64,000 bases of DNA, taken from IMG/VR virus record IMGVR_UViG_3300028048_000039, positions 128,001-192,000 of that record; one strand, written 5' to 3'. This document shows positions 15,167-41,371 of the stretch, piece by piece; position 1 is the first letter of the stretch, and the number at the start of each line of letters is the position of its first letter. The position numbers and the translations under genes were made by a program. Below the pieces are notes generated by a model that was given only the letters and a program-made list of their open reading frames with translations, was not told the origin of the DNA and made no database searches. The stretch comes from a virus. Taxonomy: Duplodnaviria > Caudoviricetes.

Positions 15167-15168
15167 TT

Positions 15169-21926: not shown

Positions 21927-22549
21927 AGACAATGAAAACAATACCATTTGATATTGCTCTTAGAAGTGAAATACAGAGCAAAGAAAACAAGTATTTGGGA
22001 AGATACAAGGTTCAGACAAGGAGTGGAAAATCTGCGAGAATTATTTGCTGGGATAATAAAAATCCTGAATTTCCAATTGCGGGTCTTCCGATTGCTGCTC
22101 TTGTTGAGGACTCTTCTCATTCTAATGAAACCGCATTTTTGTTACTTTTGTTTCGCAAGGATGGAATGTGTTGTGGCACATCCGATAATGATTTATGTCT
22201 CATAGACACATGGGAACCGAAGTTCAAGGTGGGAGATACAATAAGAAATAAGGTTACTGATATTGTTCGTAAGATAGTAAAACTCAACGATACACATTAT
22301 AGCGCAATAGACCCTTTTGAACCAATTTCTTATAACCATAGTCATTCGTATTGTATTTCATATAAATGTCAGGATTTATATGAACTTATTTCAGAAGAAT
22401 CAGAACTGACAGATTTTGAAAAGGAGTTGGCAAATTGCCTCAGTAAATCTATTATTGTCCGTGACGTAGAAACATTGGCAAAAGAGTGTGCCCCTAAACT
22501 TCTTGAACTTGCTAAGAAAGAAATCATAGAAAAACTGAAGGAGGAATAA
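21923..22549 (+). CDS. Mosaic hypothetical protein
   Basis: 'TRSG..ARIICWD', 'EPKFKVGD', 'ELTDFEKEL' modules. Confidence 0.7.
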   Translation: MKTMKTIPFDIALRSEIQSKENKYLGRYKVQTRSGKSARIICWDNKNPEFPIAGLPIAALVEDSSHSNETAFLLLLFRKDGMCCGTSDNDLCLIDTWEPKFKVGDTIRNKVTDIVRKIVKLNDTHYSAIDPFEPISYNHSHSYCISYKCQDLYELISEESELTDFEKELANCLSKSIIVRDVETLAKECAPKLLELAKKEIIEKLKEE

Positions 22550-26318: not shown

Positions 26319-26424
26319 CACTATACAGCCGTTCCTCGGCTGTTTTTTTTATTTCTATGAAAAAGTTTGTTTTTATTTAGAATTTTTTGTATATTTGCAG
26401 TGTAAAAGAAAATTTGATTTAGTT

Positions 26425-27315: not shown

Positions 27316-27335
27316 TTAAGATAAATAATTTAGTT

Positions 27336-28949
27336 ATGACAAGAGAAGAAGCAATAAATATATTAAGTGAAAGATATGGCAGTGCTTTATTTTCGGAGCG
27401 CACGGCCCTTGAAACACTTATCCCAGAACTCCGAGAGAATGAGGATGAGATGATAAGGAAATGGCTATATGACTATATAAGCAATTGTCCTAATAATAAC
27501 TTTGCCTTCTATGGTGGGGTCGGGAAAGATGCTGTCTTGAACTACCTTGAAAAGCAGAAAGAGCGTGGTGAAGCAAATTTTAGAGAAGGATATCTGCATG
27601 GATTTGAAGATGCACAAAAAGAGCAGAAACCCACAAATAATAGCACCAGGGAAAAAATCATTAGTAGAGCAACATCCGAAAAACAAGTGGTTCTTATTTC
27701 AGAATCAGGCGGTGAAGCAGAAATTGGTTGGGACACTCGTTCCTTGGAAGATGCAAAGAAGTTGTTAGAGTATGGACTTGCGTTTATCAATAAGAGCATC
27801 ACAAACCCTGCTGAAAAACAGAAAGATAACGCATCAAACAGTTTTGATGATGTATGGGATGAAGAGGACTGCGAAGAGATTATTGCCGAAGGGCAGAAAT
27901 TGACCCCAAGGTTTAAGGAATTGCTTAAAGAAGTCTGTCATGCTTGGTATGATAGAGGTGTTAAACTCGCAGAACAGAAAGCAGCAGAAACTCCACAATG
28001 GATGATTGATTTTCTGAATGATATACTCTCATCTTGTATCATATATGATGATTATGTTAGAAGACGAGAGTATCAAAGTAAAGTTCTTGGTATTATCAAG
28101 TGGCTTGAGAATCAGAAAACAAAAACTCCTCAATGGATGATTGATTTTCTGAAAGAGATACAGCCTTATTCTATAAATAAGGAAGAGTATGCAGGTTACG
28201 CCGGAAGGATAGAGTTTGAAAGTAAAATTCTTACCATCATAAAATGGCTTGAAGGTAACTTTATTCAGCAGAAAGAGCAGAAGCCAGTAGAGTGGACAAA
28301 ACTTACTTGGAAAGATGTTAATGATTTAGAAGAAATAATGAATGAAGTTCGTTCCGATTATCGTGGGGGAGGTATAGGACAAAAGAGTTTTGGCTTAGAG
28401 GTTCTTGAAAGATTCCGTTACATAAAAGGCGATGAACTTGATGTAAAAGAGCAGAAACCCACAGAGTGGAGCGAGGAAGGCAAGAATGCGATAGTAGATA
28501 TTCTACGAGGACTTCATAAAGGAATTTTATATAAAGAAGCAGAAGAAATAGCAGACGATATACTCAAATTCCTCAAACCCAAGCCAAAGAATGAGTGGAG
28601 TGAAGAGGATGAAAGAATGCTTTCTCGTTGTATTAAGTCTGTAGAATGTTCAAAACAATTTGCTGATTCGGAAACTTATAAGGCGGCAAAAGATGTAGAA
28701 ATGAATTGGCTCAAATCCCTCCGTTTCCAGCCACGACAGAACCCAGAAGTCAAACTCACAGGATGGGTGGCAAGAGATAGAAATGAAGACATATGTGTTT
28801 ACGAGGATTACCCTGAAAAAGATTCTAAAAGGCAGTTTTGGTTTGCATCTGGTCATATGTCTCTTGACGAAAAATCTTTCCCAGACATTAAGTGGGAAAA
28901 TGAGCCCGTAGAAGTTGAGATAACTATTAGAAAAAATGAGCATATCTAA
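27336..28949 (+). CDS. Family D long modular protein 1 (MTREEAI...LIPEL / EQKPxEWSEEDE)
   Basis: N- and C-modules shared with 29081; internal 'TPQWMIDFL...IIKWLE' duplication. Confidence 0.8.
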   Translation: MTREEAINILSERYGSALFSERTALETLIPELRENEDEMIRKWLYDYISNCPNNNFAFYGGVGKDAVLNYLEKQKERGEANFREGYLHGFEDAQKEQKPTNNSTREKIISRATSEKQVVLISESGGEAEIGWDTRSLEDAKKLLEYGLAFINKSITNPAEKQKDNASNSFDDVWDEEDCEEIIAEGQKLTPRFKELLKEVCHAWYDRGVKLAEQKAAETPQWMIDFLNDILSSCIIYDDYVRRREYQSKVLGIIKWLENQKTKTPQWMIDFLKEIQPYSINKEEYAGYAGRIEFESKILTIIKWLEGNFIQQKEQKPVEWTKLTWKDVNDLEEIMNEVRSDYRGGGIGQKSFGLEVLERFRYIKGDELDVKEQKPTEWSEEGKNAIVDILRGLHKGILYKEAEEIADDILKFLKPKPKNEWSEEDERMLSRCIKSVECSKQFADSETYKAAKDVEMNWLKSLRFQPRQNPEVKLTGWVARDRNEDICVYEDYPEKDSKRQFWFASGHMSLDEKSFPDIKWENEPVEVEITIRKNEHI

Positions 28950-28967
28950 AGTTACAAGGTTGGAAAA
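28751..28967 (+). repeat. 217-bp direct repeat (second copy at 30664-30880)
   Basis: Encodes KLTGWVARD...VEVEITIRKNE; similarity runs past the stop codon. Confidence 0.85.
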
Positions 28968-29080
28968 TGAAACAGAAGCAATAAACTATAATAAGATAGT
29001 GATTAATACTAATATTTGGATTTTAACTATAATTAATTACATATTACATTTTGGATTTAAAGTAAGAAAGGAGAAATAGT

Positions 29081-30862
29081 ATGACAAGAGAAGAAGCAAT
29101 AAGGATACTAAGTGAAAGATATAGTAGTGCCTTATTTTCAGAACGCACTGCACTGGAAACACTTATTCCTGAACTCAAAGAAAGTGAGGAAGAAAAAGCA
29201 AGAAAGTGGATATATGACTACATCCATAACTGTCCTAATGAGTCTTTTGAGTTCTATGGTGGGGTCGGGAAAGATGCTGTCTTGAACTACATCGAAAAGC
29301 AGAAATACGATAGGATGAAACCTATCTATGATGCAAGAGAATCCTTTGAATCCGCACTTGAAAAGGCTTGGAATGATTATCATAACGGATATGAAAATGT
29401 TGACAAGTTGGAAGATGACTATGTGGAATGCGCTCATGCCAAGGGATTCCGTGAAGGATACTTATTTGGCATCGAAAAGCAGAAAGAGGCAAGTAAAGCA
29501 ATAGAGGCTGTTGAAAACATTGACAAGTACCTTGATGAACATCTTGCCAATGCACACGATATGAAGGATTCCAATCCTGACAAAAAGTATTACCGTGGAT
29601 GGGACGATTATCCAGAACTGGCAGGAATACTACAGGATGTTTATTCCGAAGAAGAGCAGAAAGAGCCTGATGGGACATGGACAGAAGAAGATGAAGCGAC
29701 GGGAAAATATGCAAAAGAACACCCAGCTAACCTTGAAGAAGCAGCAGAAAAATATGCAAATAAAGAACATCCAGATGAGTCAAGTGTTGGACAATTTGGT
29801 ACAGGTGATTATGAGCCACCTATTGATAGAGAATACCCAAGAGAAATTGCAAAAGATGCTTTCAAAGCTGGTGCAGAATGGCAGCAGAAAAAGCAGAAAC
29901 CAGTAGAGGATTGGAGAGAAAAGAGAAAGGAAGAGTGTCCGTTTAGGAGAAACCTTGACAACAATCTTTATGGCTGTAAACGATATGCTGATGTAATTAG
30001 CGAATGTACTGGAGCCTGTTCTTGGGTTGTGGATTACCCGAAGATAAAAGAAATTCAAGATAGGCAAGAACAGAAGCCCGAATCTAAGGTAGAACCTAAG
30101 TTCAGGGTTGGTGACACTCTCCGTAAAAAGGGTAAGAGTTATACATTCACTGTAGACAGAATAATAGATGATTGCTATCTTACAGAAAGAAATAGTTTCT
30201 TCTACATTCAGGACCAAGACCAATGGGAACTTGTTTCCATCCCGATTGAGGGCGAATTTCCTTATACTGACTCCGCAGACACTTTGGATGGCGAGATAGA
30301 CAACATTTGGAGTAAATTAAGTTGCAACAACTGGTTTACAGCAGACAAATGCGGCTTTTATGAAGTAATCCACCATTTTGCAAACTGGATTGAAGAGCAT
30401 CAGCCTAAAGAGTGGAGCGAGGATGATGAGCACAGATGTAAGGATGCTATCTATTTTCTCGAAACGGCAAAAAAACATTATGCTTGTACTTCAGAGATTG
30501 AACTCACTATTAAATGGCTCAAATCACTCCGTCCACAATCTAAAGATGAAATACACAAAGAGAAAAATGAGAAACCTAAACACACGGAAGTATGGGTAGA
30601 AGGTAGGACAATCTTTGAGCAAGATGCAAATACTTTTGTTAACACCGAGGGAGAATTCGAAGCCAAACTCACAGGATGGGTGGCGAGAGATGAAAATAGA
30701 GAAATATGGGTTTATGGTAATTACCCTGAAAAAAATTCTGAAAAGCATATATGGACAGAAAGTAGTTGTATGCCTCTTGACCAAAAATCTTTTCCAGACC
30801 TCAAATGGGAAGACGAACCTGTAGAAGTTGAGATAACTATTAGAAAAAATGAGTATGTCTAA
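29081..30862 (+). CDS. Family D long modular protein 2
   Basis: Ends shared with 27336; internal module shared with 37544. Confidence 0.8.
   Translation: MTREEAIRILSERYSSALFSERTALETLIPELKESEEEKARKWIYDYIHNCPNESFEFYGGVGKDAVLNYIEKQKYDRMKPIYDARESFESALEKAWNDYHNGYENVDKLEDDYVECAHAKGFREGYLFGIEKQKEASKAIEAVENIDKYLDEHLANAHDMKDSNPDKKYYRGWDDYPELAGILQDVYSEEEQKEPDGTWTEEDEATGKYAKEHPANLEEAAEKYANKEHPDESSVGQFGTGDYEPPIDREYPREIAKDAFKAGAEWQQKKQKPVEDWREKRKEECPFRRNLDNNLYGCKRYADVISECTGACSWVVDYPKIKEIQDRQEQKPESKVEPKFRVGDTLRKKGKSYTFTVDRIIDDCYLTERNSFFYIQDQDQWELVSIPIEGEFPYTDSADTLDGEIDNIWSKLSCNNWFTADKCGFYEVIHHFANWIEEHQPKEWSEDDEHRCKDAIYFLETAKKHYACTSEIELTIKWLKSLRPQSKDEIHKEKNEKPKHTEVWVEGRTIFEQDANTFVNTEGEFEAKLTGWVARDENREIWVYGNYPEKNSEKHIWTESSCMPLDQKSFPDLKWEDEPVEVEITIRKNEYV
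30410..30525 (+). repeat. 116-bp intragenic repeat (second copy at 38873-38988)
   Basis: Encodes EWSE.D.HRCKDAIYFLETAKKHYA.TSEIELTI.WLKS. Confidence 0.85.
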
Positions 30863-30971
30863 AGTTACAAGGTTGGAAAAATTGCAAAAAATTCCAACCT
30901 GTTTTTGTTTTCTCATTTTCTTTTTGTATATTTGCAGAAAAGTATATAAGTAAAGATAAGGATGATTAATT

Positions 30972-31358
30972 ATGTGTTTAACATTGAATAACTATTCAAA
31001 AATAGTAATAGCAGAAGAAGACATCATCTGCTACAAGGTATTGCGTGTATTTTCCACAGGGGGTATAGAGGCTCCTTTTCGCAAATTCCAATATGAGGTA
31101 GGAGAAACATATCATACAGATAAAAGACTGAAGAAGATTTGGGACCATGCAAATGGTGTATATGTCATAAAAAAAGGATTCCATAGTTTTCCTCATCATA
31201 TAGATGCAGTTTCTTTCAATAAGAGAATTCTTCCATACACTTTGAATAGTAAGGTCTATAAGTGTATAATACCCAAAGGAACAAGGATGATTTTGGGACA
31301 TTTTTATGGGATGCCATCTATCGTTTCTGAAACAATTAAAATAATAGAAAGAGTATGA
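30972..31358 (+). CDS. Family B paralog
   Basis: CYKV / GFHSF / KCIIPKG. Confidence 0.8.
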   Translation: MCLTLNNYSKIVIAEEDIICYKVLRVFSTGGIEAPFRKFQYEVGETYHTDKRLKKIWDHANGVYVIKKGFHSFPHHIDAVSFNKRILPYTLNSKVYKCIIPKGTRMILGHFYGMPSIVSETIKIIERV

Positions 31359-31801
31359 CAACAGAAAATAAGCAGCTATTACTCAAAGACCTCTGTGCGA
31401 GGTTGCCTTATAGGGTAATAGCATATGCATCTGAAATCAATAAAAATGGAATCATAACAGACGTTAATGTACCATACAATATGGTCAATTTAACAGTTGA
31501 TAATGAGAGTGGAAAGTATGAATTAGTTCCTTTATTTGATATTAAACCTTATCTTCGTCCAATGTCAAGTATGACTGAGGAAGAAAAGAAGGTATTTGAT
31601 GATTTTGTTTGTATTGATGAGTTTGCTTGGAACGGTAATGCTGAAAAAGGATATCCAAACCAGGCAGCCATTATGTCAGATGGTATTGACTGGCTTCTTG
31701 AACATCATTTTGATTTCCGTGGTTTGATTAAGAAAGAATTAGCATTGGAGGCGCCGGAGGGAATGTATAAAAGGGGAGTAGCAAATGAGCAGCTTTGTTA
31801 A
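31355..31801 (+). CDS. Family A paralog 3
   Basis: Three conserved blocks. Confidence 0.8.
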   Translation: MTTENKQLLLKDLCARLPYRVIAYASEINKNGIITDVNVPYNMVNLTVDNESGKYELVPLFDIKPYLRPMSSMTEEEKKVFDDFVCIDEFAWNGNAEKGYPNQAAIMSDGIDWLLEHHFDFRGLIKKELALEAPEGMYKRGVANEQLC

Positions 31802-32063
31802 CAAATACAAAATTGTCTATGATGGCAATGATGGAATGACTTACGAAAAGTTTATTTATTGTAAGTTTGAGAATGTTTGGGATGGCCAATTATGGAGAAA
31901 TGAAGACGGTACGCCAGTAGACTTTGAATGCGTTACAGACAGCGAGGCTTATGTTACCGCAATGTGCATTGCAAATATTCCAACTGAGGATAAATACTTC
32001 TATTGGGAAAAAGTAGAAGAATTTGTGCTTCCAGAAGCAGTTGAAAAAGAGTTCTATAAATAA
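31785..32063 (+). CDS. Hypothetical protein
   Basis: Preceded by GGAGTAGCAAATG junction. Confidence 0.65.
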   Translation: MSSFVNKYKIVYDGNDGMTYEKFIYCKFENVWDGQLWRNEDGTPVDFECVTDSEAYVTAMCIANIPTEDKYFYWEKVEEFVLPEAVEKEFYK

Positions 32064-32075
32064 AGAAATTGAATT

Positions 32076-32525
32076 ATGACACAAGAAGAAAAACAACTAT
32101 TATTAAAGGACCTCAGTGCGAGGTTGCCTTATGGAGTTATAATGAACTATAAAGACTCTATAGTTGATTCTCATACTTGGAAACTCAGTACTCTATATGC
32201 TTTGTCATATAGTAAAGCGGGAATTCCAATAGATACAGATTGGGATGGAAATGTAGAATATGTAGAGTACCAGGGATGTAGTATGTCAACTGCTTCGAGA
32301 CCCATTTCTCTTGAAAAAAATCTTCCTTATCTCCGCCCAATGTCAAGTATGACAGAGGAAGAGAAAGAGGATTTTGGTGTCCCATTCACCTCGGAAGGAC
32401 TTGTTACACTTGCTGACACAGTGGAGTGTATGGATTGGCTCAACAAGCATCATTTTGACTATCGTAGTTTGATTGAAAAGGGTTTGGCTCTTGAAGCACC
32501 TGAAGGAATGTATAAAACTGAATAG
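32076..32525 (+). CDS. Family A paralog 4
   Basis: Three conserved blocks. Confidence 0.8.
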   Translation: MTQEEKQLLLKDLSARLPYGVIMNYKDSIVDSHTWKLSTLYALSYSKAGIPIDTDWDGNVEYVEYQGCSMSTASRPISLEKNLPYLRPMSSMTEEEKEDFGVPFTSEGLVTLADTVECMDWLNKHHFDYRSLIEKGLALEAPEGMYKTE

Positions 32526-32528
32526 ACT

Positions 32529-32912
32529 ATGACACAGGAAAATATACAGAAAATAAAAGATAAACGACGGGAAGAAAGAGAGAATTATATTGCAAAGACT
32601 GTCAAGTGGCTAGAGGAGCTTAAGCCTTTTACGGAGGAGTTCATACCAGAGCCGCCGATTCTTGACAAGGAGATGTACGACAAGTATGTAATCCCTAACT
32701 TTATCCGTTGCGGAGCCATTCCCAAGGACAAGTTAATCATTGGAGAGACCTACATTGGAAATTGCCGGAATGCAAGTGAAGCGGCGTGGAATGGCAAGGC
32801 GTTTACTTATAAGCGCACCAAGTTCGGCTGTACATATGATGAGGATATAAACCATTTCCAGGATGATGACGGTTATGATGTTTTCGTTCCTATAAAAATT
32901 AAAGAATTATGA
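32529..32912 (+). CDS. Conserved phage hypothetical protein
   Basis: 'GAIPK..L..G..Y.G.CRNA..A.W.G..F.Y.R.KFG' pattern. Confidence 0.7.
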   Translation: MTQENIQKIKDKRREERENYIAKTVKWLEELKPFTEEFIPEPPILDKEMYDKYVIPNFIRCGAIPKDKLIIGETYIGNCRNASEAAWNGKAFTYKRTKFGCTYDEDINHFQDDDGYDVFVPIKIKEL

Positions 32913-33322
32913 CACAAGAAGAAAAACAACTATTATTAAAGGACCTCTGTGCGAGGTTGCCGTATGGAGTAAGAATCAATCATATAATTTATGGTTGGGA
33001 GGGGAATGCGGTAAATTTCAATAAAAAATTAGAATCTTTCGCTATTGAAAAAGATAATGGACTTTCTTATGATGTGCCTGTAGAAGAGGTGCGCCCCTAT
33101 CTCCGCCCAATGTCAAGTATGACTGATGAAGAGGTAAAAGAATTTTATGATGTGGAATGTATGGATGCAGAAGTTGGATATATTAAACCTACTTGGAATT
33201 GGCATTTTACAATAAATGGAATTGATTGGCTCAATGAACATCATTTTGACTACAGAGGTTTAATCAACAAAAGATTAGCATTAGAGGCACCTGAAGGAAT
33301 GTATGAAAGTAAGAATAATTAG
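32909..33322 (+). CDS. Family A paralog 5
   Basis: Three conserved blocks. Confidence 0.8.
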   Translation: MTQEEKQLLLKDLCARLPYGVRINHIIYGWEGNAVNFNKKLESFAIEKDNGLSYDVPVEEVRPYLRPMSSMTDEEVKEFYDVECMDAEVGYIKPTWNWHFTINGIDWLNEHHFDYRGLINKRLALEAPEGMYESKNN

Positions 33323-33467
33323 AAATATTGGTCCTATTGGCTGTGTAACTAGTCCTTCTGTTGGAACTTATACAGTAGAGAAAGAGGTTACAACAGAAGA
33401 ATTATTATCTCTATTAAATAATCCAGAAGATTTAATAAAAATAGAAATATTGTATAAAGAGGAATAA
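33303..33467 (+). CDS. Small hypothetical protein (MKVRIIRNIG...)
   Basis: 54 codons filling the gap. Confidence 0.5.
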   Translation: MKVRIIRNIGPIGCVTSPSVGTYTVEKEVTTEELLSLLNNPEDLIKIEILYKEE

Positions 33468-33469
33468 AT

Positions 33470-33892
33470 ATGTGTTTGATTTTATTTGATACCGAAATAA
33501 GAGTAGCGAAGGAAGACATTATCTGCTACAAGGTATTTGAGAAACGGGGTGATGATTTAATATCTCCTTATCAGAATATGCACTATGAATATGGCAGAGC
33601 GTATGTGACAGAAACTCCTATAATAGTAAAATACGGAGTTGCAACGAGAGGATACATAGAAGAAGGGTTTCATTCTTTTCTTAAAAAAGAAGATGCACAA
33701 TACTTTGCATCAAATCTACAGACATGGTTTCTTCCTGTCAAACCTAGTATCCTCCAAGTTGGAATGGAGTTTATAACAGTAAAGTGTTTAATTCCTGCGG
33801 GAACAAGATATGCAGCGGGGTTTTTCTGTGAATTTGGAAAGAGTTTTGATAGTTTCTGCTCAGAACGAATAATAGCGGTGGAGGAAGTTTAG
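33470..33892 (+). CDS. Family B paralog (tandem 1/5)
   Basis: Family motifs. Confidence 0.8.
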   Translation: MCLILFDTEIRVAKEDIICYKVFEKRGDDLISPYQNMHYEYGRAYVTETPIIVKYGVATRGYIEEGFHSFLKKEDAQYFASNLQTWFLPVKPSILQVGMEFITVKCLIPAGTRYAAGFFCEFGKSFDSFCSERIIAVEEV

Positions 33893-33894
33893 TT

Positions 33895-34293
33895 ATGTGT
33901 CTTAAAGTAGGAAACAATACTAAAATTGAAACAGCACAAGAAGACATCATTTGTTACAAAGTCTTCAGAACAGAAACATATTCAGGGAGATTTGGACTTC
34001 TATCACCCTATCGAAAAATGAAATATATCCCCGATGTATTGTATACCTTAGAAAAGCCTTTGGAAATAGATAGCACCACATGGTTATACCCAATTGTTGA
34101 AAAAGGATTTCATTCCTTCGTATCTAGAGAATCAGCACACATGTTTTTGGACGACTACTATGTCAGAAAACCAGCAATACTCAAATGTAAGATACCAAAA
34201 GGAGCAAAGTTTGTACGAGGAATTTTTCGGTTTTATGGATTTGATTATGAAAGTATTTGCTCAGACCAAATAATTGTGTTAGAAAGTGTATAA
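33895..34293 (+). CDS. Family B paralog (tandem 2/5)
   Basis: Family motifs. Confidence 0.8.
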   Translation: MCLKVGNNTKIETAQEDIICYKVFRTETYSGRFGLLSPYRKMKYIPDVLYTLEKPLEIDSTTWLYPIVEKGFHSFVSRESAHMFLDDYYVRKPAILKCKIPKGAKFVRGIFRFYGFDYESICSDQIIVLESV

Positions 34294-34295
34294 AT

Positions 34296-34745
34296 ATGTG
34301 TTTGACTTTAACTGAAAATTCAAAATTAAAAGTAGCAGAAGAAGATATCGTTTGCTACAAAGTGGTACTGAGACAGTATTCCGGGGTCTACAGGTCAGAA
34401 TTTTACGCTTACCTATATGAAACAGGGGTCTTAAATAAGCACCCATTTGGTGACATTACAATTACTACCCTTCCACGTATTACTACCTATCGGAGTGCTA
34501 ACTTTAACCAACAGGTTATTGCCGGCTATGAGCAGGTTGTTGAAAGGGGATTTCATTCTTTTACATGTAAAAAAGATGCTTACAAGTATGCTGGGTGTGT
34601 TATCAATAGGATGTTTCACGGTATTAGCAAAGACGTAGTAGTAGTAAAATGTATTATTCCAAAGGGTGCTAACTATATTGAAGGTACATATAGCGAGTAT
34701 CCAAATTACGTATCTAATAAAATAATTTGTTTAGGAGAAATTTAG
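34296..34745 (+). CDS. Family B paralog (tandem 3/5)
   Basis: Family motifs; start MCL at 34296. Confidence 0.8.
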   Translation: MCLTLTENSKLKVAEEDIVCYKVVLRQYSGVYRSEFYAYLYETGVLNKHPFGDITITTLPRITTYRSANFNQQVIAGYEQVVERGFHSFTCKKDAYKYAGCVINRMFHGISKDVVVVKCIIPKGANYIEGTYSEYPNYVSNKIICLGEI

Positions 34746-34746
34746 T

Positions 34747-35199
34747 ATGTGTTTGTATGTAACGAGTAAAAAAGTACGGGTAGCAAAGGAAGATATGGTT
34801 TGCTATAAAGTTATGATGGAACATTATGGAGACAAAGGAGCGTGGGTGTCTCCTTATCAGGGTATGGCTTATAAGGAAGGATGCGCCTATGAATTGGAGA
34901 AGCAATTGCAATTGTTGGATTCCAAATTTGGAAACATCAAAGATTATCCTTACATAGTAGAAGAAGGGTTCCATTCTTTTGCAAACTTATCAGATGCTTT
35001 GCTTTTTCGAAATACCTGTGAAGTCAGGTATCCAACTGTGAGCCGGGGTGACGGTTGGCACACTTATATTATAGTAAAATGTATTATTCCTAAAGGGACA
35101 ACCTATGTAGAAGGATTATACGTTGATAATTGGGATAATAAGTTTCATAGTTTTTGCTCCGAGAAAATAATTTGTGAAGACGAAATTGAAATTGAGTAA
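34747..35199 (+). CDS. Family B paralog (tandem 4/5)
   Basis: Closest to 36927. Confidence 0.8.
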   Translation: MCLYVTSKKVRVAKEDMVCYKVMMEHYGDKGAWVSPYQGMAYKEGCAYELEKQLQLLDSKFGNIKDYPYIVEEGFHSFANLSDALLFRNTCEVRYPTVSRGDGWHTYIIVKCIIPKGTTYVEGLYVDNWDNKFHSFCSEKIICEDEIEIE

Positions 35200-35211
35200 T
35201 TAGGATAGAAT

Positions 35212-35613
35212 ATGTGTTTAATTGTAAATAGTGAACTAAAAGTAGCACAAGAAGATATAGTCTGCTACAAAGTCCTTAGGTATTGCGAGCCATTGAAATC
35301 ACCGTTTCGAGGAATGGCTTATCTTAAAAATCATCTCTATGAATTGGGGAAACCGTTGCAAGTGGATAGTCACCATCGTATAAATGAGGGTTTTCATTCC
35401 ATTATCAGAGCCGATGATGCTAAGAAACTATCAGATGATATAGGCTATTTTTACGAGCATTATTCCGAAAACAAACATTGCTGTATTGTAGCAAAGTGTA
35501 TAATACCAAAAGGAACTGTCTATGCGGAAGGACTGTTCAGTTATGGGAATAAGTATCACAGTTATTGCTCGGAAAAGATAAAAGTAATTGATATTGTAGA
35601 AGACGATAAATAA
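35212..35613 (+). CDS. Family B paralog (tandem 5/5)
   Basis: Family motifs. Confidence 0.8.
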   Translation: MCLIVNSELKVAQEDIVCYKVLRYCEPLKSPFRGMAYLKNHLYELGKPLQVDSHHRINEGFHSIIRADDAKKLSDDIGYFYEHYSENKHCCIVAKCIIPKGTVYAEGLFSYGNKYHSYCSEKIKVIDIVEDDK

Positions 35614-35634
35614 TTTGCGTAAAAGAGGTTTAGT

Positions 35635-35664
35635 ATGTGTTTGGATGTAATAAGTAAAGAATAA
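35635..35664 (+). pseudogene. 9-codon stub of a family B gene (MCLDVISKE*)
   Basis: TTTAGTATGTGTTTG.ATGTAA..AGTAAA matches the start of 34747. Confidence 0.55.
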
Positions 35665-35671
35665 ATGACTA

Positions 35672-36181
35672 ATGAAAACTACTAAGAATATGAAATATAA
35701 AGAATTTGTAAAGCAGATATGGGATGCTGTGGAAGAGTGTCCTGATAACTGGAGAAAAGGCCAAAAGGTGTTTAATGTGATGGAAACACTCTATGGGGAT
35801 GTGGCGAGACAAGTTCAATTCATCAACAAGGTGGATTGCTTCTATGATGATAAGCAAATAGAACCATTCATCGACCAGTGCTGGATAAGGGTTTTCTCTA
35901 AAGAACATCCAATTCCGCCAAGAGAAGAAGAGTCAGTGGATTTTGATGAAGCAGCAGCCAAGTACATAGAATCTCAAACTCCTGCTGACCAAGGGGAAGA
36001 AATGACTATCTATAATGCTTTCAAAGCAGGTGCAGAGTGGCATGCTCGGCAAGGACAGATATTTGAGTCTGTCGTATGGCAAGATAGTGATGACAAACTT
36101 TTTGTTGAAGCATTTGTTGATGAAAACAAGTTCAAAATGGCTGATGGTGTAGTCATCCAAGTTATAAGAAAGACAATATGA
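35672..36181 (+). CDS. Mosaic hypothetical protein
   Basis: 'WRKGQ..FN..DCFYDD' domain fused to the 'VDFDEAAAKY...AFKAGAEW' module. Confidence 0.7.
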   Translation: MKTTKNMKYKEFVKQIWDAVEECPDNWRKGQKVFNVMETLYGDVARQVQFINKVDCFYDDKQIEPFIDQCWIRVFSKEHPIPPREEESVDFDEAAAKYIESQTPADQGEEMTIYNAFKAGAEWHARQGQIFESVVWQDSDDKLFVEAFVDENKFKMADGVVIQVIRKTI

Positions 36182-36298
36182 GGAAACCAAATTTTGAAAG
36201 GGAAGCAATAGCGTTTTGTTTTTTTTAAAAAAGTTTTGTATATTTGCAATGTTGAAAAATTAACTAACATTTTATATTAACTTTTAAATTTTTAAAAT

Positions 36299-36424
36299 AT
36301 GAGTTGGAATTTTTACCCAGAAAATAGGTTTTCATCTTATGATGATTATGTAAAGTATCTTAAAGAAAGGGGCTTTGCCATGGAAGCACCAGAAGGGATG
36401 TATGAAAAAGGAAGTAAGATATGA
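36299..36424 (+). CDS. Short ORF ending in the family A C-terminal block (MEAPEGMY)
   Basis: 41 codons after promoter 36239; chimeric remnant. Confidence 0.55.
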   Translation: MSWNFYPENRFSSYDDYVKYLKERGFAMEAPEGMYEKGSKI

Positions 36425-36588
36425 ATATAGAAGATATATGGAACATTGATAATCTTTACCGAATGAACAGAACAACAAAAGAGGCATCTGATGAATTAAA
36501 ACTTCCAGAATCTGATGTTATTGCTGTTTATTTGAAAATAAGAGAACATGAGAAGAATTTAAGAAAAAGACCATTGTATAAAATATAA
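36421..36588 (+). CDS. Small hypothetical protein
   Basis: 55 codons, ATGA overlap. Confidence 0.5.
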   Translation: MNIEDIWNIDNLYRMNRTTKEASDELKLPESDVIAVYLKIREHEKNLRKRPLYKI

Positions 36589-36591
36589 ATT

Positions 36592-36924
36592 ATGACACAA
36601 GAAGAAAGACAACTACTACTAAAAGACCTCTGTGCAAGAATTCCTTATGAGGTTCAATGCGAAATTGGTGGGCTTCGATATGGACCATATACATTTACGG
36701 GTGATGATATTGAAGACTTAATTGCTGGGAGAATGTTCAAACCCTATCTTCGTCCAATGTCAAGTATGACTGAGGAAGAAGAAATATACTATAACACGAT
36801 ATATATTACTCTGAAATTTTATGAAAGGGAAGATTGGCTCAATGCTCATCACTTTGACTATCGTGGACTCATTGAAAAGGGTCTCGCCATTGAAGCACCT
36901 GAAGATATGTATAAGGAGGAATAA
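36592..36924 (+). CDS. Family A paralog 6
   Basis: Three conserved blocks. Confidence 0.8.
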   Translation: MTQEERQLLLKDLCARIPYEVQCEIGGLRYGPYTFTGDDIEDLIAGRMFKPYLRPMSSMTEEEEIYYNTIYITLKFYEREDWLNAHHFDYRGLIEKGLAIEAPEDMYKEE

Positions 36925-36926
36925 TT

Positions 36927-37373
36927 ATGTGTTTAGCATTACAAAAACCAGAGATTATTGTAGCAAAAGAAGATATAGTTTGCTATAAAGTTATGATTGA
37001 ATATCCTAGAAACAACGGTATATGGACATCTCCTTATATGGGTATGGCTTATAGGGAAGGACATTCATATGAATTAGGGAAGAAATTGAATTTGTTGGAT
37101 TCTTCTAAAACCATCAAAGAATACCGTTATAGGGTAGAAGAAGGTTTCCATTCTTTTACAAGTTTGTCAGAGGCTTTGTTTTTTCTAAATGCTTTTGAAG
37201 CAAGGTATCCATGCCTAAATCGGTGCTCGGATGCTAGTCGGTATGTTGTAGTGAAATGTATCATTCCTAAAGGGACCACCTATGCAGAAGGATTATTCTT
37301 TGATTGGGGTAATAAGTTTCTTAGTTTTTGTTCCGAGAAAATAATTTGTGAAGGTAAAATCGAAAATGAATAG
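36927..37373 (+). CDS. Family B paralog
   Basis: Family motifs. Confidence 0.8.
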   Translation: MCLALQKPEIIVAKEDIVCYKVMIEYPRNNGIWTSPYMGMAYREGHSYELGKKLNLLDSSKTIKEYRYRVEEGFHSFTSLSEALFFLNAFEARYPCLNRCSDASRYVVVKCIIPKGTTYAEGLFFDWGNKFLSFCSEKIICEGKIENE

Positions 37374-37543
37374 TTATGACCGCAAAAGATATTCAGATTA
37401 TAGACAGTCTTCTCACAGAAGTATCCAACTCTATTGCAGTAGGAGAGCTTGAAGAAATGGAGATAGGAGAATACTATCAGGAAGTGTTGAGGAGGTATAA
37501 CGAAATTAAAAAAGTACAAGAATAATTATTTTGATATGGTGAT

Positions 37544-39556
37544 ATGACAAGAGAAGAATCAATAAAAATTGTAAAAGAGTTCATAAATGGCACATGCCTT
37601 CATCTGGTGGACCAAGAGGCTCTTAAAACCCTTATTCCTGAACTCAAAGAGAGTAAGGGCGAGATACACGAGTGGATTTTAGAATACCTCTATGATGGCT
37701 TGCGGAAATCCGATGAGCAGTTCAAAGGACAGTTCAAGTCAGCAATAGATTGGCTCGAAAATCTAGGTAATATGGATATAGAAACTTATAAAAATGCAGA
37801 AAAAGAAAAATCTGATTTTGTTGGAGATGGTTTTATTAAATGTTATGCTAACTTTTTAGATTTCAAAGAAGGAGAAACTTATTGGCTTGAATATGTTGGC
37901 AAAGATAATTACAATGTAAGAAGTGACAATCTTCTTGGGAAAACATATCATATAACACCATACCAACTTTACCGTTTGTTTACTCAAGAACATTGTCCAA
38001 AAGAAGATAGTGCGAGTGAGGGAACAAATGCACCAACAGGATATGGTAAATATGTTGATGAATGTCTTAATAAAGCATCTAAACATTTCTTTTCAGAGGG
38101 AGAAGATAAGTATAGTGTCGCAGATTTGTTTTATGCTGGTGTAAGATGTGGAAAGTCTTGGCTTGAGAAGCAAGGTGAGCAGGAACTGAAGGATAAGTCT
38201 AAATTCAAAGAGAATAGTGAGTATGAGAGGGTAAGAAAGGCAATCGTTACACTTATCAAAGACCTTCAACACTACTCTACAAACTACGCTGGTGTTGACC
38301 CCGCAGATATGCTTGCTTGGCTTGAAAACCATAATCCGTCATTCAAGCAAATTAGTGATGGTATCAAATGGGATAGCGGACTCAGGACTGGTATTGAACT
38401 CGGAAAGAAAGAGCAGAAGCCAAGCATCAATATAGACCAATTGAAATCCATGATGCTCCAATACCTCCAAGAAGCAGCCAATGAAAAGGATGATTCGGCT
38501 ATAGAAGCGGATACTGATAAGTGGGCAAGAATGATACTTAGATATGACTTCGAGCAGAAACCCTCAGAGTGGGAATGGCCTAACCTATCAAACTGTATTA
38601 GGAACTGTAAGAAGTGCCACGGGAAATGTTTATATCGTAAAGAACCATATGAAGAGAAGCAGCCATTAGAGTGGAGCGAGGAGGATGTAAAAAGAATAAA
38701 GCAACTTATTTACGACACAGAAGCCATTCGTGCTGGATATGAAAGGAAAAAGGAGCAATTGGGTGAGTGCTTCAACGAATCGTTAATTAAAGATTGTGAC
38801 GAACAAGTTGCTTGGCTCAAATCCCTCAAAGATAGAGGGAATTTCCCAAAAAGTAACACTAATTCCCCAAGTGAGTGGAGTGAGGAAGATAAGCACAGAT
38901 GTAAGGATGCTATCTATTTTCTTGAAACAGCAAAAAAGCATTATGCTAGTACTTCAGAAATTGAACTCACTATTGAGTGGTTAAAATCTCTTCAACCGCA
39001 AGCAAGGCAGGAACAGAAAGAACAGACTACTTTAGAGTATCTTCCAAAGGAAAAAATTAATGACATTATATCTAAACTGACCAATCTTTCCTTTAGAAAA
39101 CTTATTCCATACAATAGTAAAGAATATAAAAAGATAAAGGAGATTAGAACTAATGTCCGTGACCTTCTTGACTATCCTATTGAACAGAAACCAGTAGAGT
39201 GGAGCGAGGAAGATGAGAAAATGCGAACAAAAATTCTTGAAGCTCTCGATGCTTATGCTGACCATGTGCAATATACGGGTTTTTGGGTTAATTCAGAACT
39301 TATACGAAAAGAACTAATGGGTTGGCTTAAATCCCTCCATCCCCAGCCCCATACTGTGAGTATAAAAAATGCCAATAAGTTTGCAGAACTTGAATATGAG
39401 CGTGGTGTAAAAGACGGATTAAATCACCATTGGAAACCCAGCGAGGAGCAGATGCAGGCGTTGAGCGAAACTATTGCAGTTACAGTTGACACATTTCCGC
39501 CAAAGTGTACACTCATAACATTACGAGATGATTTGAATAAACTGATGGAGGAATAA
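37544..39556 (+). CDS. Family D long modular protein 3
   Basis: MTREE...LIPELKES; multiple EQKP / EWSEED / WLKSL junctions; WKPSEEQM end module. Confidence 0.8.
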   Translation: MTREESIKIVKEFINGTCLHLVDQEALKTLIPELKESKGEIHEWILEYLYDGLRKSDEQFKGQFKSAIDWLENLGNMDIETYKNAEKEKSDFVGDGFIKCYANFLDFKEGETYWLEYVGKDNYNVRSDNLLGKTYHITPYQLYRLFTQEHCPKEDSASEGTNAPTGYGKYVDECLNKASKHFFSEGEDKYSVADLFYAGVRCGKSWLEKQGEQELKDKSKFKENSEYERVRKAIVTLIKDLQHYSTNYAGVDPADMLAWLENHNPSFKQISDGIKWDSGLRTGIELGKKEQKPSINIDQLKSMMLQYLQEAANEKDDSAIEADTDKWARMILRYDFEQKPSEWEWPNLSNCIRNCKKCHGKCLYRKEPYEEKQPLEWSEEDVKRIKQLIYDTEAIRAGYERKKEQLGECFNESLIKDCDEQVAWLKSLKDRGNFPKSNTNSPSEWSEEDKHRCKDAIYFLETAKKHYASTSEIELTIEWLKSLQPQARQEQKEQTTLEYLPKEKINDIISKLTNLSFRKLIPYNSKEYKKIKEIRTNVRDLLDYPIEQKPVEWSEEDEKMRTKILEALDAYADHVQYTGFWVNSELIRKELMGWLKSLHPQPHTVSIKNANKFAELEYERGVKDGLNHHWKPSEEQMQALSETIAVTVDTFPPKCTLITLRDDLNKLMEE

Positions 39557-39557
39557 T

Positions 39558-39746
39558 ATGAAAATGGCATTAGCAAAAAGAACTGTGGATGGAGTTTGTA
39601 GAGAAGGATTTGCATATAGTTTTAAGATAGACCCTACAACTCTATCAATAATAGTTCCAGCAGATAATGGTAGGGATGCTGTTTTTTTTAATTGGTTTGC
39701 AGATAGAGAAGAATTTAATAAAGTATTTGAAATAATTGAATTATAA
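39558..39746 (+). CDS. Hypothetical protein
   Basis: GGAGG SD. Confidence 0.6.
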   Translation: MKMALAKRTVDGVCREGFAYSFKIDPTTLSIIVPADNGRDAVFFNWFADREEFNKVFEIIEL

Positions 39747-39918
39747 TAGATGTTTACGAAATAAGATACATGCCAGAGAAAGACTGTAGGTATTGTGGTA
39801 AATCTGCCTGCAATTTGAAGCCAAAACACAGGAACTTGAACAAGTGTAAATGCTGTCAATATGGATGGTGGAGGTAACCTCTGTACCAAGTAGAAATAAT
39901 TGCAAAAAATTTATATCT

Positions 39919-40392
39919 ATGAAGATGCTAATAAACAAAGCAAATCCTGCAATCAGGATAACTGCACCAGAGATAGAGGAAGATAAGACCTGTTATTATG
40001 TCGCAGAACTTGCTATTGGTAAGTATAACTGGACTCTTGTTGAGGAAGAAGAAAATATTGATAATATGCCTATTTATTTCAAAATTCCAATAACTACAAG
40101 ATACAGTGATGATTTGTCTTACTTCGATATGAAATTTACTCATGTTGTGAAAACAAATAAATTTTGTGAAAGGGATATTTATGGGGATGAATGCTGTTGT
40201 TATTATGTATCTTCTATATATAAAGCGGTAAAAGATAAAGTTTGGCTTTTTAGCGAACTTGCAGAATGTGGATATGTACCAACTATAGAAGATTTTATAA
40301 GAGGATTATTTAAAGAAATGAAAGATGAAAACGCTGATAAACAAAGCAAATCCTGCAATCAGGATAACCGCACCAGAGATAGAGTCTTATAG
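39919..40392 (+). CDS. Family F paralog
   Basis: MKMLINKANPAIRITAPEI; ~50-bp repeat with the start of 40325. Confidence 0.7.
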   Translation: MKMLINKANPAIRITAPEIEEDKTCYYVAELAIGKYNWTLVEEEENIDNMPIYFKIPITTRYSDDLSYFDMKFTHVVKTNKFCERDIYGDECCCYYVSSIYKAVKDKVWLFSELAECGYVPTIEDFIRGLFKEMKDENADKQSKSCNQDNRTRDRVL

Positions 40393-41161
40393 AAAGTTTT
40401 ATACTTTACCAGATAAAGACTTTCATCATTTATTCAAAATGGAAACTTGGACTCTCGTTGAGGAAGAGCCAGAAATGACAAAGTACTTGAGATTTGGAGA
40501 CATTCCAGAAAACGGAAAATCAAAAATATGGAGAGGAGAAGAATGTGTTGGTGAGGAAGAAGGGGTTTCTGTATATGAAATAAGATTGGATAAAGACAAA
40601 CATATCTCTATATGTCTTCCGTTCCCTTTTCATAGAGATACATTAGACACACTATGTGTTTTGACTAAATATGATAATCGTCCTTGCTATACTGTTACAG
40701 GAGAATATGTCGGCAAAGGAACTGATGGCGAACCTCTTATCAGTAATGTACAAATAGAGGAAGAATTTCCTAAAATAATTTCTGATGAAAAGATGAAACA
40801 AATGGGAGAAGAAATTTCCAAAGCGGCAGTTGATAACATTAGAGAGCGGTTCAATAAGATAGTTGAACCTGAACTAGTTGACTTAGAGAAAGCGGCAGAA
40901 GAATATGCAGACAAGCACGGATTTAGAGTTCCTTATGATGGTTCTAACAACTTCTACGATGATGTAGATGTTAAAGCATCTTTAGAAGGTTTCAAGGCAG
41001 GCGCCAGGTGGATGGAGGAACAAGGAGAATCAAATAATTGGAAACCAACCAAAGAGCAGATAGAATATCTTTCAAAAGCAATCTTAACTCTTGGAGAAGA
41101 AGGGGATGGCAAGACTACTGCCGTATTAAATGGGTTAAGAAAAGATTTGAAAAATTTATAA
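40325..41161 (+). CDS. Family F mosaic protein
   Basis: F N-module + 'YLRFGDIPENGKS...EEGVSVY' domain + 144-bp repeat module + WKPTKEQ module. Confidence 0.75.
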   Translation: MKTLINKANPAIRITAPEIESYRKFYTLPDKDFHHLFKMETWTLVEEEPEMTKYLRFGDIPENGKSKIWRGEECVGEEEGVSVYEIRLDKDKHISICLPFPFHRDTLDTLCVLTKYDNRPCYTVTGEYVGKGTDGEPLISNVQIEEEFPKIISDEKMKQMGEEISKAAVDNIRERFNKIVEPELVDLEKAAEEYADKHGFRVPYDGSNNFYDDVDVKASLEGFKAGARWMEEQGESNNWKPTKEQIEYLSKAILTLGEEGDGKTTAVLNGLRKDLKNL

Positions 41162-41173
41162 GGAGATTGAGTT

Positions 41174-41371
41174 ATGACACGCAAAGAAGAAATCCAATTT
41201 AATGACGGTGTTTGGTTCGCTATCCAAACTATTGTTGTGGATTATGATGAGCCTACTATTGCGAGACACATCTTGTCTGAGCTAAAAATAGATAAAAAGG
41301 AAATGCGTAGATGCCAGAAAAAGTCAGGCTATTTAGATGAGATAATGAGGGAGTTTATTAATAACTGTTAG
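41174..41371 (+). CDS. Hypothetical protein
   Basis: AAGGAG SD. Confidence 0.6.
   Translation: MTRKEEIQFNDGVWFAIQTIVVDYDEPTIARHILSELKIDKKEMRRCQKKSGYLDEIMREFINNC

What the first reader, a model, noticed from the sequence alone, without database searches (positions are those of the whole stretch)
27336..41161. 'Lego' polyproteins (families D/E/F) assembled from a shared pool of short modules
Seen: 27336 and 29081 share the first ~75 aa and the last 217 bp but have different middles. 29081 and 37544 share a 116-bp internal module. 21438 and 40325 share a 144-bp module with 4 mismatches. Recurrent junction words (EKQKE, EQKP, EWSEEDE, WLKSL.PQ, VDLEK, AFKAGAEW, EPKF.VGD, WKP..EQ, IDSLQQEQPE) come from recurrent DNA words such as GAGCAGAA(A/G)CC and GAGTGGAG(C/T)GAGGA, and the same modules recur in small genes (14720, 15169, 21923, 35672). 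Inference: in-frame microhomology junctions allow domain-level shuffling, giving a combinatorial protein repertoire over ~28 kb.
Basis: partly seen in the sequence, partly recalled or inferred. Interest (0 to 1): 0.8.

Follow-up and report, generated by a model that had tools for sequence, protein, structure and literature searches.

The report
Phage proteins shuffled at conserved junctions
Several probably early genes of a 345-kb rumen phage encode strings of small helical modules joined by short linkers whose DNA is kept almost letter-for-letter in many different phage contigs, and other phages show modules swapped, inserted or lost exactly at these linkers, so the linkers behave as in-frame recombination handles, although what the proteins do is still unknown.

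Summary
Genes 27336, 29081, 37544, 40325, 21438 and several small genes share short modules with razor-sharp identity borders, for example 161 nt at 96% between genes 19 kb apart.

1. Module order is not fixed. A gene on another viral contig (L008) is an in-frame chimera of three window genes. Its breakpoints lie inside KEQKP(A)EWS and WLKSLRPQ, and one extra module is flanked by a 15-nt direct repeat of the KEQKP word.
2. The junction words are conserved at silent sites far beyond codon usage. GAG before Trp is 42/44 against 42% background, and the pattern holds in contigs of 30-57% GC. Module interiors are unrelated.

AlphaFold2 models show beads on a string: two-helix hairpins whose first and last turns, plus the disordered linker, are the junction words.

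Best reading: short-homology recombination at DNA-conserved in-frame words trades modules among rumen Bacteroidales phages. Nothing supports the "polyprotein" label, and function is unknown. The closest known case is motif-mediated exchange in T-even tail-fibre adhesins.

This scan has reported similar DNA-fixed in-frame linkers before on other DNA (e1-5375722, e1-5938877, e1-1932379, e1-5162065).

The parts
27336..28949 (+). Mosaic gene 1 (537 aa, P0001). It contains an N module, three EQKP words, an internal tandem module pair, one EWSEED..WLKSL hairpin and a C module.
   Evidence: no Pfam, PHROG or NCBIfam family
27336..27560 (+). N module (aa 1-75), shared with 29081-29305 at 82%. Identity stops right after the word GAAAAGCAGAAAGA (EKQK).
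27621..27632 (+). EQKP junction word (GAGCAGAAACCC). In L008 a 150-nt extra module sits here, flanked by a 15-nt direct repeat of AAAGAGCAGAAACCC.
27985..28252 (+). Tandem pair of TPQWMIDFL...IIKWLE modules (27985-28108 and 28120-28252, 71% DNA identity), a module duplication inside the gene.
28275..28286 (+). EQKP word. This is the crossover zone where the L008 gene switches from gene-27336-like to gene-37544-like sequence.
28449..28460 (+). The third EQKP word of gene 27336.
28593..28721 (+). EWSEED..WLKSL two-helix hairpin module of gene 27336.
28746..28949 (+). C module (KLTGWVARD...), shared with 30659-30862 at 82%.
29081..30862 (+). Mosaic gene 2 (593 aa, P0002). Order of parts: N module, FKAGAEW-type module (about 29648-29899), EQKP at 30068-30079, PKFRVGD at 30095-30115, EWSEDD..WLKSL hairpin, C module.
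30410..30538 (+). Hairpin module shared with 38873-39001 (87%). The WLKSLRPQ word at its 3' end is the crossover zone where L008 switches to gene-29081-like sequence.
37544..39556 (+). Mosaic gene 3 (670 aa, P0003). The AlphaFold2 model is a string of about eight small folded units separated by linkers with pLDDT below 50.
38411..38422 (+). EQKP word inside the predicted disordered linker aa 275-293.
38552..38563 (+). EQKP word at the start of the predicted disordered, Cys-rich linker aa 337-375.
38669..38827 (+). The first EWSEED..WLKSL hairpin of gene 37544 (aa 376-428).
38873..38992 (+). The second hairpin (aa 444-483), which shares its interior with gene 29081.
39182..39345 (+). EQKP word plus the third hairpin (aa 547-601). 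The same module (91.5% DNA identity) sits in the L008 chimera between gene-27336-like and gene-29081-like parts.
39431..39556 (+). WKPSEEQ C-terminal hairpin module. It is the commonest module shared with other viral contigs.
39919..40392 (+). Tandem partial paralogue. Its N module 39919-40007 is 80% identical to 40325-40413, and its 3' end overlaps the start of gene 40325.
40325..41161 (+). Mosaic gene 4 (278 aa, P0004). Order of parts: N module, middle part, VDLEK..FKAGARW module, WKPTKEQ module (41039-41158).
40863..41023 (+). VDLEK..FKAGA.W module, 95.7% identical to 21745-21905 with unalignable flanks. This looks like a recent ectopic exchange within the genome.
21438..21926 (+). Small member (162 aa) that carries the N module and the VDLEK..FKAGAKW module (21745-21905).
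35918..36052 (+). FKAGAEW-type module inside small gene 35672-36181 (34.5% aa identity to gene 21438).
14990..15483 (+). VDLEK modules of small genes 14720 and 15169 (40% aa identity over 65 aa). The upstream QQEQPE word is identical DNA in genes 14103 and 14720.
22217..22237 (+). PKFKVGD word in gene 21923. It is a motif-level match only to gene 29081.
26366..26398 (+). Bacteroidota-type promoter (TTTG..TATATTTGC) at the head of the operon that contains genes 27336 and 29081. A terminator hairpin follows at about 30862-30900.
36215..36247 (+). Bacteroidota-type promoter at the head of the operon that contains genes 37544 and 40325.

Best explanation
These are multi-module proteins of a T4-related rumen phage and are not known to be polyproteins. 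They are probably early-expressed and cytoplasmic.

Each protein is a string of small, independently folding units, mostly two-helix hairpins of 45-65 aa plus an SH3-like unit. The junction words are the constant last turn of one unit (W-L-[EK]-[KS]-[LQ]), a flexible linker (G-EQKP or RPQP) and the constant N-cap of the next unit (x-E-W-S-E-E-D-E, or W-K-P-S-E-E-Q).

Every unit therefore begins and ends with the same 15-30 nt of DNA in the same reading phase. Recombination between any two words, whether in paralogues of one genome or in co-infecting phages, gives an in-frame protein with whole modules swapped, added or deleted. Repeated exchange, and probably selection for staying exchangeable, keeps the words uniform even at silent sites, while the interiors between them are replaced wholesale.

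The result is a pool of modules shared among many rumen Bacteroidales/Prevotellaceae phages.

Shown here: the modules, the position of the words at module borders, silent-site conservation, breakpoints inside the words, variable module order, and a phage RecA/UvsX-like gene.

Inferred: that the exchange depends on short homology, that it is carried out by phage or host recombination enzymes, and that the variable hairpin interiors are binding surfaces under diversifying pressure. This last point is speculative.
For: 1. Sharp mosaic borders within the genome.

2. The L008 gene (528 aa, on another IMG/VR contig) is built from window 27440-27632 (99%), 27618-28296 (98.4%), 39182-39345 (91.5%) and 30515-30694 (94.4%). 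The crossover zones are AAAGAGCAGAAACCAGCAGAGTGGAG and TGGCTCAAATCCCTCCGTCCACAA. One 150-nt module is flanked by a 15-nt direct repeat of the KEQKP word. The rest of that contig matches window 21200-41190 only in short blocks.

3. L025/L068 show the same kind of module indel at EKQKEQK. L014/L019, L018/L092 and L029/L065 are single-module patches bounded by words.

4. The ends of short patches of at least 88% identity between different contigs lie within 12 nt of a word in 25 of 64 cases. Random positions in the same ORFs give 6.1 +/- 2.3, and 0 of 2000 permutations reach 25.

5. Silent-site conservation:
- In 40 other loci EQKP is written GAG CAG AAG CCC (43/45, 42/45, 41/45, 28/45, against backgrounds of 43/46/41/24%). 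WLKSL is written TGG CTC AAA TCC CTC.
- A codon-blind scan for KPxEWSEEDE found 45 viral stretches. GAG before W is 42/44 and AAG is 39/44, while the last Glu of the motif is at background.
- The pattern holds in low-, mid- and high-GC loci.
- It is not a codon-context effect: Glu before Trp outside the motif is GAG in 44% of cases, against 89% inside it.
- Junction versus interior codon identity at identical residues: Lys 0.81 vs 0.50, Asp 0.85 vs 0.54, Leu 0.51 vs 0.22, Ser 0.46 vs 0.25.
- An unrelated Erysipelothrix protein that has the same peptide by chance uses other codons.

6. The interiors between constant ends are unrelated: 28 distinct interiors among 31 aligned modules.

7. AlphaFold2 places EQKP in linkers with pLDDT below 50, EWSEED at the helix N-cap and WLKSL at the helix end.

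8. The phage has a RecA/UvsX-like gene and a T4 Gp23 capsid protein.
Against:
- All comparisons rest on metagenome assemblies, which can mis-join at repeats. Against this, the L008 pieces are 91-99% identical to the window copies, not 100%. The identical zones are also only 15-27 nt long.
- 39 of 64 patch ends are not at the six word classes I scored. Some are at other words such as LIPELKESEDE or at gene ends.
- Silent-site conservation could have another cause, such as an RNA-level or translational signal, that I could not test.
- The direction and rate of the events are unknown.
- The instances are not phylogenetically independent, so the binomial p-values are nominal.
- No function is known, so 'repertoire' is an inference.
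Confidence: 0.78

Rival explanations
1. Random illegitimate recombination followed by selection. Breaks occur anywhere, but only in-frame joins in linkers survive. On this view the junction words are conserved for protein-structural reasons alone and play no part in the DNA exchange.
For: The words do coincide with helix caps and linkers, so selection at the amino-acid level is expected. 39 of 64 patch ends are not at the scored words. Ser is AGY in 44/44 cases, which amino-acid selection alone can explain.
Against: Silent two-fold sites are fixed: GAG 42/44, AAG 39/44, CAG 42/45. This holds in backgrounds of 30-57% GC and decays to background within a few codons. Module indels are flanked by direct repeats of the word. 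The crossover zones are 15-27 nt of near-identity.
Confidence: 0.1
2. The junction words are cleavage signals of a protease-processed polyprotein, and their conservation reflects the protease's specificity.
For: Earlier notes of this scan on the same genome propose head-protease-cut cargo polyproteins elsewhere (e1-5656717, not tested for these genes). The words lie in predicted flexible linkers.
Against: Only 1 of 7 EQKP sites has the T4-type [LIVM]-x-E context (sequences). The genes sit behind host-type, probably early, promoters far from the head genes. A protease signal would not fix silent sites. This reading is not exclusive of the recombination reading.
Confidence: 0.04
3. An enzyme-driven programmed system, in which a word-specific nuclease or site-specific recombinase actively shuffles modules during infection.
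For: The words are long enough (up to about 30 nt) to be a recognition site. The genome has GIY-YIG and HNH genes.
Against: No such gene lies inside or next to the clusters. The words occur as direct repeats only: 5 forward in these genes and one unrelated reverse hit 90 kb away, so it is not a shufflon. Nearby retroelements were not searched for.
Confidence: 0.05
4. An artefact, in which the mosaic pattern comes from chimeric metagenome assembly at repeated words.
For: All the sequences are assemblies, and the words are repeats.
Against: The same modules occur in different contexts in hundreds of proteins assembled independently by ENA, JGI, Logan and NCBI. The L008 pieces differ by 1-9% from the window copies. 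The identical zones of 15-27 nt are short. All the joins are in frame.
Confidence: 0.03

Closest known systems
Tail-fibre adhesin loci of T-even phages (gp37/gp38): hypervariable segments separated by conserved motifs, with exchanges in or near the motifs (Trojet et al. 2011, PMC3157838, citing Tetart et al. 1996, 1998)
   Same: Both are in T4-type phages. [quoted passage not shown] The outcome in both is a new combination of recognition determinants.
   Different: There is no homology to gp37/gp38. The proteins here are not in the virion module but behind host-type promoters. The units are whole helical-hairpin domains on flexible linkers, not loops of one folded domain. The motifs are conserved at silent sites across contigs of 30-57% GC. 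The pool includes GNAT, WDGH and dockerin domains in relatives.
PeSL (promoter-early stem-loop) cassettes of T4-type hyperplastic regions (Arbiol et al. 2010, PMC2839356)
   Same: Short repeated DNA elements in a hyperplastic, accessory-gene region of a T4-type genome serve as recombination points for modular shuffling. The window also has 13 repeated promoters, several preceded by a terminator hairpin.
   Different: PeSLs are intergenic regulatory cassettes that move whole genes. The words here are coding and in phase, and they move sub-gene protein modules.
Botstein's modular theory with conserved linkers, and relaxed homologous recombination by phage recombinases (Martinsohn et al. 2008, PMC2327257; De Paepe et al. 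2014, PMC3945230)
   Same: In both, mosaicism is created by recombination at short or diverged homologous stretches rather than at random.
   Different: Those studies concern gene-level mosaics of temperate phages and Rad52-like or Red recombinases (abstracts only). Here the exchange is in frame inside genes of a T4-related phage with a RecA/UvsX-like gene.
Polyvalent proteins of phages and conjugative elements
   Same: Both are long phage proteins made of many separable domains in variable order.
   Different: Polyvalent proteins are defined by enzymatic and anti-defence domains. The window proteins have no recognised domain, and a DNA-conserved linker is not part of that definition.

Membership tests
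T-even gp37/gp38-type mosaic adhesins | Variable segments separated by short conserved motifs | tested here: met
   Alignment A4 has constant EWSEED and WLKSL ends around 28 distinct interiors among 31 modules.
T-even gp37/gp38-type mosaic adhesins | Exchange points lie within or near the conserved motifs | tested here: met
   L008 breakpoints. 25 of 64 patch ends lie at words, against 6.1 expected.
T-even gp37/gp38-type mosaic adhesins | Sequence homology to gp37/gp38 and location in the tail-fibre module | tested here: not met
   No Pfam or PHROG hit. The genes lie in accessory operons behind host-type promoters.
PeSL cassettes | An intergenic unit of a strong sigma-70-like promoter plus a terminator stem-loop | tested here: not met
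   The junction words are coding and in frame. Separate promoter (and sometimes hairpin) repeats do exist between operons.
Protease-processed polyprotein (T4 prohead-protease type) | The cleavage signal [LIVM]-x-E at module junctions | tested here: not met
   Only 1 of 7 EQKP junctions has a hydrophobic residue at P3 (V-K-E in gene 27336; sequences).
Protease-processed polyprotein (T4 prohead-protease type) | Actual cleavage or packaging of the products | not testable with these tools
   This needs proteomics.
Polyvalent proteins | Several recognisable enzymatic or anti-defence domains in one chain | tested here: not met
   No family for P0001-P0004 in Pfam, PHROGs or NCBIfam. Some relatives carry GNAT, WDGH or dockerin domains.
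Shufflon / invertible-segment systems | Inverted repeats of the crossover site and a linked site-specific recombinase | tested here: not met
   The words occur as direct repeats only. No recombinase was found among the ORFs scanned. Not every ORF was scanned.
Diversity-generating retroelement | A reverse transcriptase with a template/variable repeat pair and adenine-specific changes | not tested
   The interiors differ in length and are unalignable, which is unlike point mutagenesis. No reverse-transcriptase search was run.

The most novel reading that the evidence does not exclude
The junction words are a selected, community-wide 'assembly standard'. Phage contigs that differ widely in size and GC content, probably from many lineages of rumen Bacteroidales phages (8 to 412 kb, 30-57% GC), keep the same in-frame DNA handles so that they can trade helical-hairpin binding modules and occasional enzyme domains. 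This would be an evolvability device at the sub-gene level. It would show Botstein-type linkers operating inside genes, possibly helped by an enzyme that acts on the words.
Probability: 0.3. Interest if true: 0.8.

Novelty: new variant of a known kind. Interest (0 to 1): 0.62.

Why it matters
Whether phage mosaicism arises at special conserved linkers or by random breakage followed by selection is an old, unsettled question. Clear cases of linkers are few and mostly concern tail fibres.

Here the linkers are inside genes, in phase and fixed at silent positions across contigs of 30-57% GC. They coincide with observed swap, insertion and deletion points. This makes the linker idea directly testable: recode the words and measure recombinants.

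The finding also defines a large, unannotated family of modular proteins in rumen phages (511 relatives in one search). The hypervariable hairpins of this family are candidates for host-interaction or anti-defence binders. The words suggest a natural template for in-frame module exchange in protein engineering.

Tried and rejected
- Family searches (Pfam, PHROGs, NCBIfam) on all members gave nothing above threshold.
- PDB sequence search gave nothing.
- Foldseek against the PDB with the P0003 model gave no match at E <= 0.001, only weak SH3-like rows for aa ~97-148.
- The VIA wide search gave only generic helical hairpins, Z <= 7.3, which is within the noise for helical models.
- ESM Atlas, searched with the whole protein and with aa 1-215, gave no usable hit.
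- blastn of 27336-30862 against GenBank phages gave no match.
- Five other large phage records, G001-G005: four share only single modules in proteins of other lengths, and one (G005) has no match. No orthologous gene was available for a strict order comparison.
- A P0004 scan of viral contigs found no relative.
- The idea that rare codons at domain borders serve as translational pauses was considered and rejected. The same word is used whether its codons are rare (30-40% GC contigs) or common (47-57% GC).
- Codon-context bias was rejected.
- The homing-endonuclease idea has no support. GIY-YIG and HNH genes exist, but not in the clusters.
Full report
**Context.** The window is bases 128001-192000 of a 344,580-bp IMG/VR virus record. 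The phage has a T4-type Gp23 capsid protein and a RecA/UvsX-like gene. The region is a block of small plus-strand genes. It is punctuated by 13 copies of a Bacteroidota-type promoter, TTTG..TATATTTGC, against 0.11 expected by chance, and several copies follow a terminator hairpin. The genes in question lie in operons that start at 20989, 26366 and 36215. Early expression from host-type promoters is therefore likely but not shown.

- Genes 27336 and 29081 share the first 226 nt (82%) and the last 222 nt (82%), with unrelated middles.
- Genes 29081 and 37544 share 129 nt at 87%.
- Genes 21438 and 40325 share 161 nt at 95.7%.
- Codon-register alignments show that identity switches on and off within a few bases. 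It ends right after EKQK at the N module. It runs from GAGTGGAG (EWSE) to WLKSL in the 129-nt module, and from just before VDLEK to W-M-x-E-Q in the 161-nt module.
- The junction peptides are rare in the genome and almost confined to these genes. A further member lies just outside the window at genome 194073-194915 (minus strand).
- GAGCAGAARCC occurs 6 times in the genome against 0 for the reversed control.

**What the modules are.**
- No sequence family matches.
- An AlphaFold2 model of the 670-aa protein, built with 119 homologues, has mean pLDDT 67.8. It is a string of folded units: aa 1-153, 166-209, 223-274, 294-336, 376-434, 443-485, 550-602 and 629-670. These are separated by stretches with pLDDT below 50.
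- EQKP lies in three of those linkers.
- EWSEED is the N-cap of a first helix and WLKSL is the end of a second helix.
- A single module modelled with 30 relatives is a two-helix hairpin (helices 11-34 and 38-54, pLDDT 78).
- In 31 aligned modules the two ends are constant, which is partly by construction of the search. The interiors differ in length and are unalignable, giving 28 distinct interiors.
- Fold searches gave only generic helical hairpins and a weak SH3-like unit. Function therefore remains unknown.

**Test 1: is module order fixed?**
- One protein search found 511 relatives. Most cover only 20-33% of the query at 50-70% identity.
- Among the best 120, 44 pairs share two or more separate modules. 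Nine pairs are non-collinear, 35 differ in spacing and none are the same.
- Single modules recur at 83-97% amino-acid identity at different positions in otherwise different proteins, some of which carry GNAT, WDGH or dockerin domains.
- The clearest case is a 528-aa gene on contig IMGVR_UViG_3300026549_000143 (locus L008). It matches window 27440-27632 at 99%, 27618-28296 at 98.4%, 39182-39345 at 91.5% and 30515-30694 at 94.4%. It is thus an in-frame chimera of three window genes.
- That contig otherwise matches window 21200-41190 only in short blocks.
- Base-by-base, the first switch falls in AAAGAGCAGAAACCAGCAGAGTGGAG (KEQKPAEWS) and the second in TGGCTCAAATCCCTCCGTCCACAA (WLKSLRPQ).
- A 150-nt module that is absent from the window is flanked on both sides by AAAGAGCAGAAACCC.
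- L025/L068 show the same kind of module indel at EKQKEQK. Several other contig pairs share single modules at 90-99% identity bounded by words.
- Over all such short high-identity patches between different contigs, 25 of 64 ends lie within 12 nt of one of six word classes. Random positions in the same ORFs give 6.1 +/- 2.3, and 0 of 2000 permutations reach 25.

**Test 2: are the words more conserved as DNA than codon usage predicts?** Yes.
- In this genome EQKP uses CCC in 4 of 7 cases, although CCC is 4% of Pro codons.
- In 40 other viral loci EQKP is GAG CAG AAG CCC in 43, 42, 41 and 28 of 45 cases, against backgrounds of 43, 46, 41 and 24%. WLKSL is mostly TGG CTC AAA TCC CTC.
- I also ran a codon-blind scan of IMG/VR for KPxEWSEEDE. 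It found 45 stretches on contigs of 8-412 kb and 30.5-56.6% GC.
- In that scan, GAG before Trp is 42/44 and AAG is 39/44, while the last Glu of the motif is at background (18/44). Nominal p-values range from 5e-14 to 0.6.
- The bias holds in low-, mid- and high-GC loci.
- It is not a codon-pair effect. Glu before Trp outside the motif is GAG in 44% of cases, against 89% inside it.
- In module pairs whose interiors are below 30% identical, identical residues share the codon far more often at junctions than in interiors: Lys 0.81 vs 0.50, Asp 0.85 vs 0.54, Leu 0.51 vs 0.22, Ser 0.46 vs 0.25.
- The same scan of 185,579 species genomes found seven stretches. Six are in rumen Bacteroidales/Prevotellaceae genomes assembled from metagenomes and carry the canonical word. 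One is an unrelated Erysipelothrix protein that has the peptide by chance and is written with different codons (AAA CCA ATT GAA TGG TCG). It serves as a natural control.

**Interpretation.**
- The words are both structural borders of protein modules and the places where DNA is exchanged.
- Constant DNA at both ends of unrelated interiors, direct-repeat-flanked indels and crossover zones of 15-27 nt fit recombination that depends on short homology. The partners could be paralogues (the 96% patch 19 kb apart, the tandem pairs at 27985/28120 and 39919/40325) or co-infecting phages.
- Continual exchange, and probably selection to stay exchangeable, would keep the words uniform.
- Purely random breakage with selection explains the location of the joins but not the fixed silent sites.
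- The polyprotein label has no support. Only one of seven EQKP sites fits the T4-type protease signal, and a protease signal would not fix silent sites.
- There are no inverted copies and no nuclease gene inside the clusters, which argues against a programmed switch.

**Limits.**
- Every sequence is a metagenome assembly.
- The instances are not independent in descent.
- The role of the proteins is unknown. Calling the hairpin interiors binding surfaces under diversifying pressure is a guess.

**Comparison with what is known.**
- The nearest described case is the T-even tail-fibre adhesin locus. [quoted passage not shown]
- PeSL cassettes do the same between genes (PMC2839356).
- The present case differs in four ways. 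It is a non-structural, domain-on-linker family. It shows silent-site conservation across contigs that differ widely in size and GC content. It has ecosystem-wide spread. Its pool includes enzyme domains.
- Earlier follow-ups in this scan reported comparable DNA-fixed in-frame linkers on other DNA (e1-5375722, e1-5938877, e1-1932379, e1-5162065). The phenomenon therefore seems to recur, and this is a further, well-documented instance.

Noticed in passing
window 711-63076 (13 sites, e.g. 19175-19237, 30835-30945, 42479-42590): The Bacteroidota-type promoter TTTG..TATATTTGC is repeated 13 times (0.11 expected). Several copies are directly preceded by a G+C-rich terminator hairpin. This is a layout like the PeSL cassettes of T4-type hyperplastic regions.
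   Followed up: partly
window 13389-13805, 22738-23124, 31355-31801, 32076-32525, 32909-33322, 36592-36924: A six-copy small-gene family (starting MTQEEKQQLLLKDLCARLPYG). Its first ~70 nt and last ~90 nt are 80-90% identical as DNA to many other viral contigs, while the middles differ. This is the same constant-ends, variable-middle pattern at whole-gene scale.
   Followed up: partly
window 16968-17405, 30972-31358, 33470-35613, 36927-37373: An eight-copy family of ~130-150-aa genes (MCL...AEEDI.CYKV...EGFHS...KCIIPKGT), with no function assigned (repeat families D8, D9, D11, D17).
   Followed up: no
window 25137-26790: Three genes with near-identical 67-nt starts (88-91%). The same start block occurs at 80-90% identity in more than 10 other contigs.
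   Followed up: no
window 14103-14866: The QQEQPE word is written with identical DNA (CAGCAGGAACAGCCAGAG) in two adjacent genes. Blocks 13962-14146 and 14244-14420 are 87-88% identical to other contigs (L032/L033, L034). This is probably a second family shuffled in the same way.
   Followed up: partly
window 17408-19189: A 593-aa protein with a PHA02142-type OB fold at the N-terminus and an RNA-ligase PHROG match (phrog_968, E 3e-34).
   Followed up: no
window 38552-38668 and 29930-30020: Cys-rich stretches (C-x3-C-x2-C-x3-C in gene 37544; C-x12-C-x10-C-x3-C in gene 29081) sit in regions the model leaves disordered. They may be small zinc-binding modules.
   Followed up: no
G000:C1:194073-194915 (minus strand, 2 kb beyond the window end): A further family member (about 280 aa) with EKQK, two (E/V)WSEED words and WLKSLKPQ.
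   Followed up: no
L068, P0068 and P0076/P0080/P0087/P0115 (relatives): Relatives of the family carry a type I dockerin, GNAT acetyltransferase or WDGH (PF25311) domain among the hairpin modules. A dockerin hints that some members act outside the cell or on the virion.
   Followed up: no
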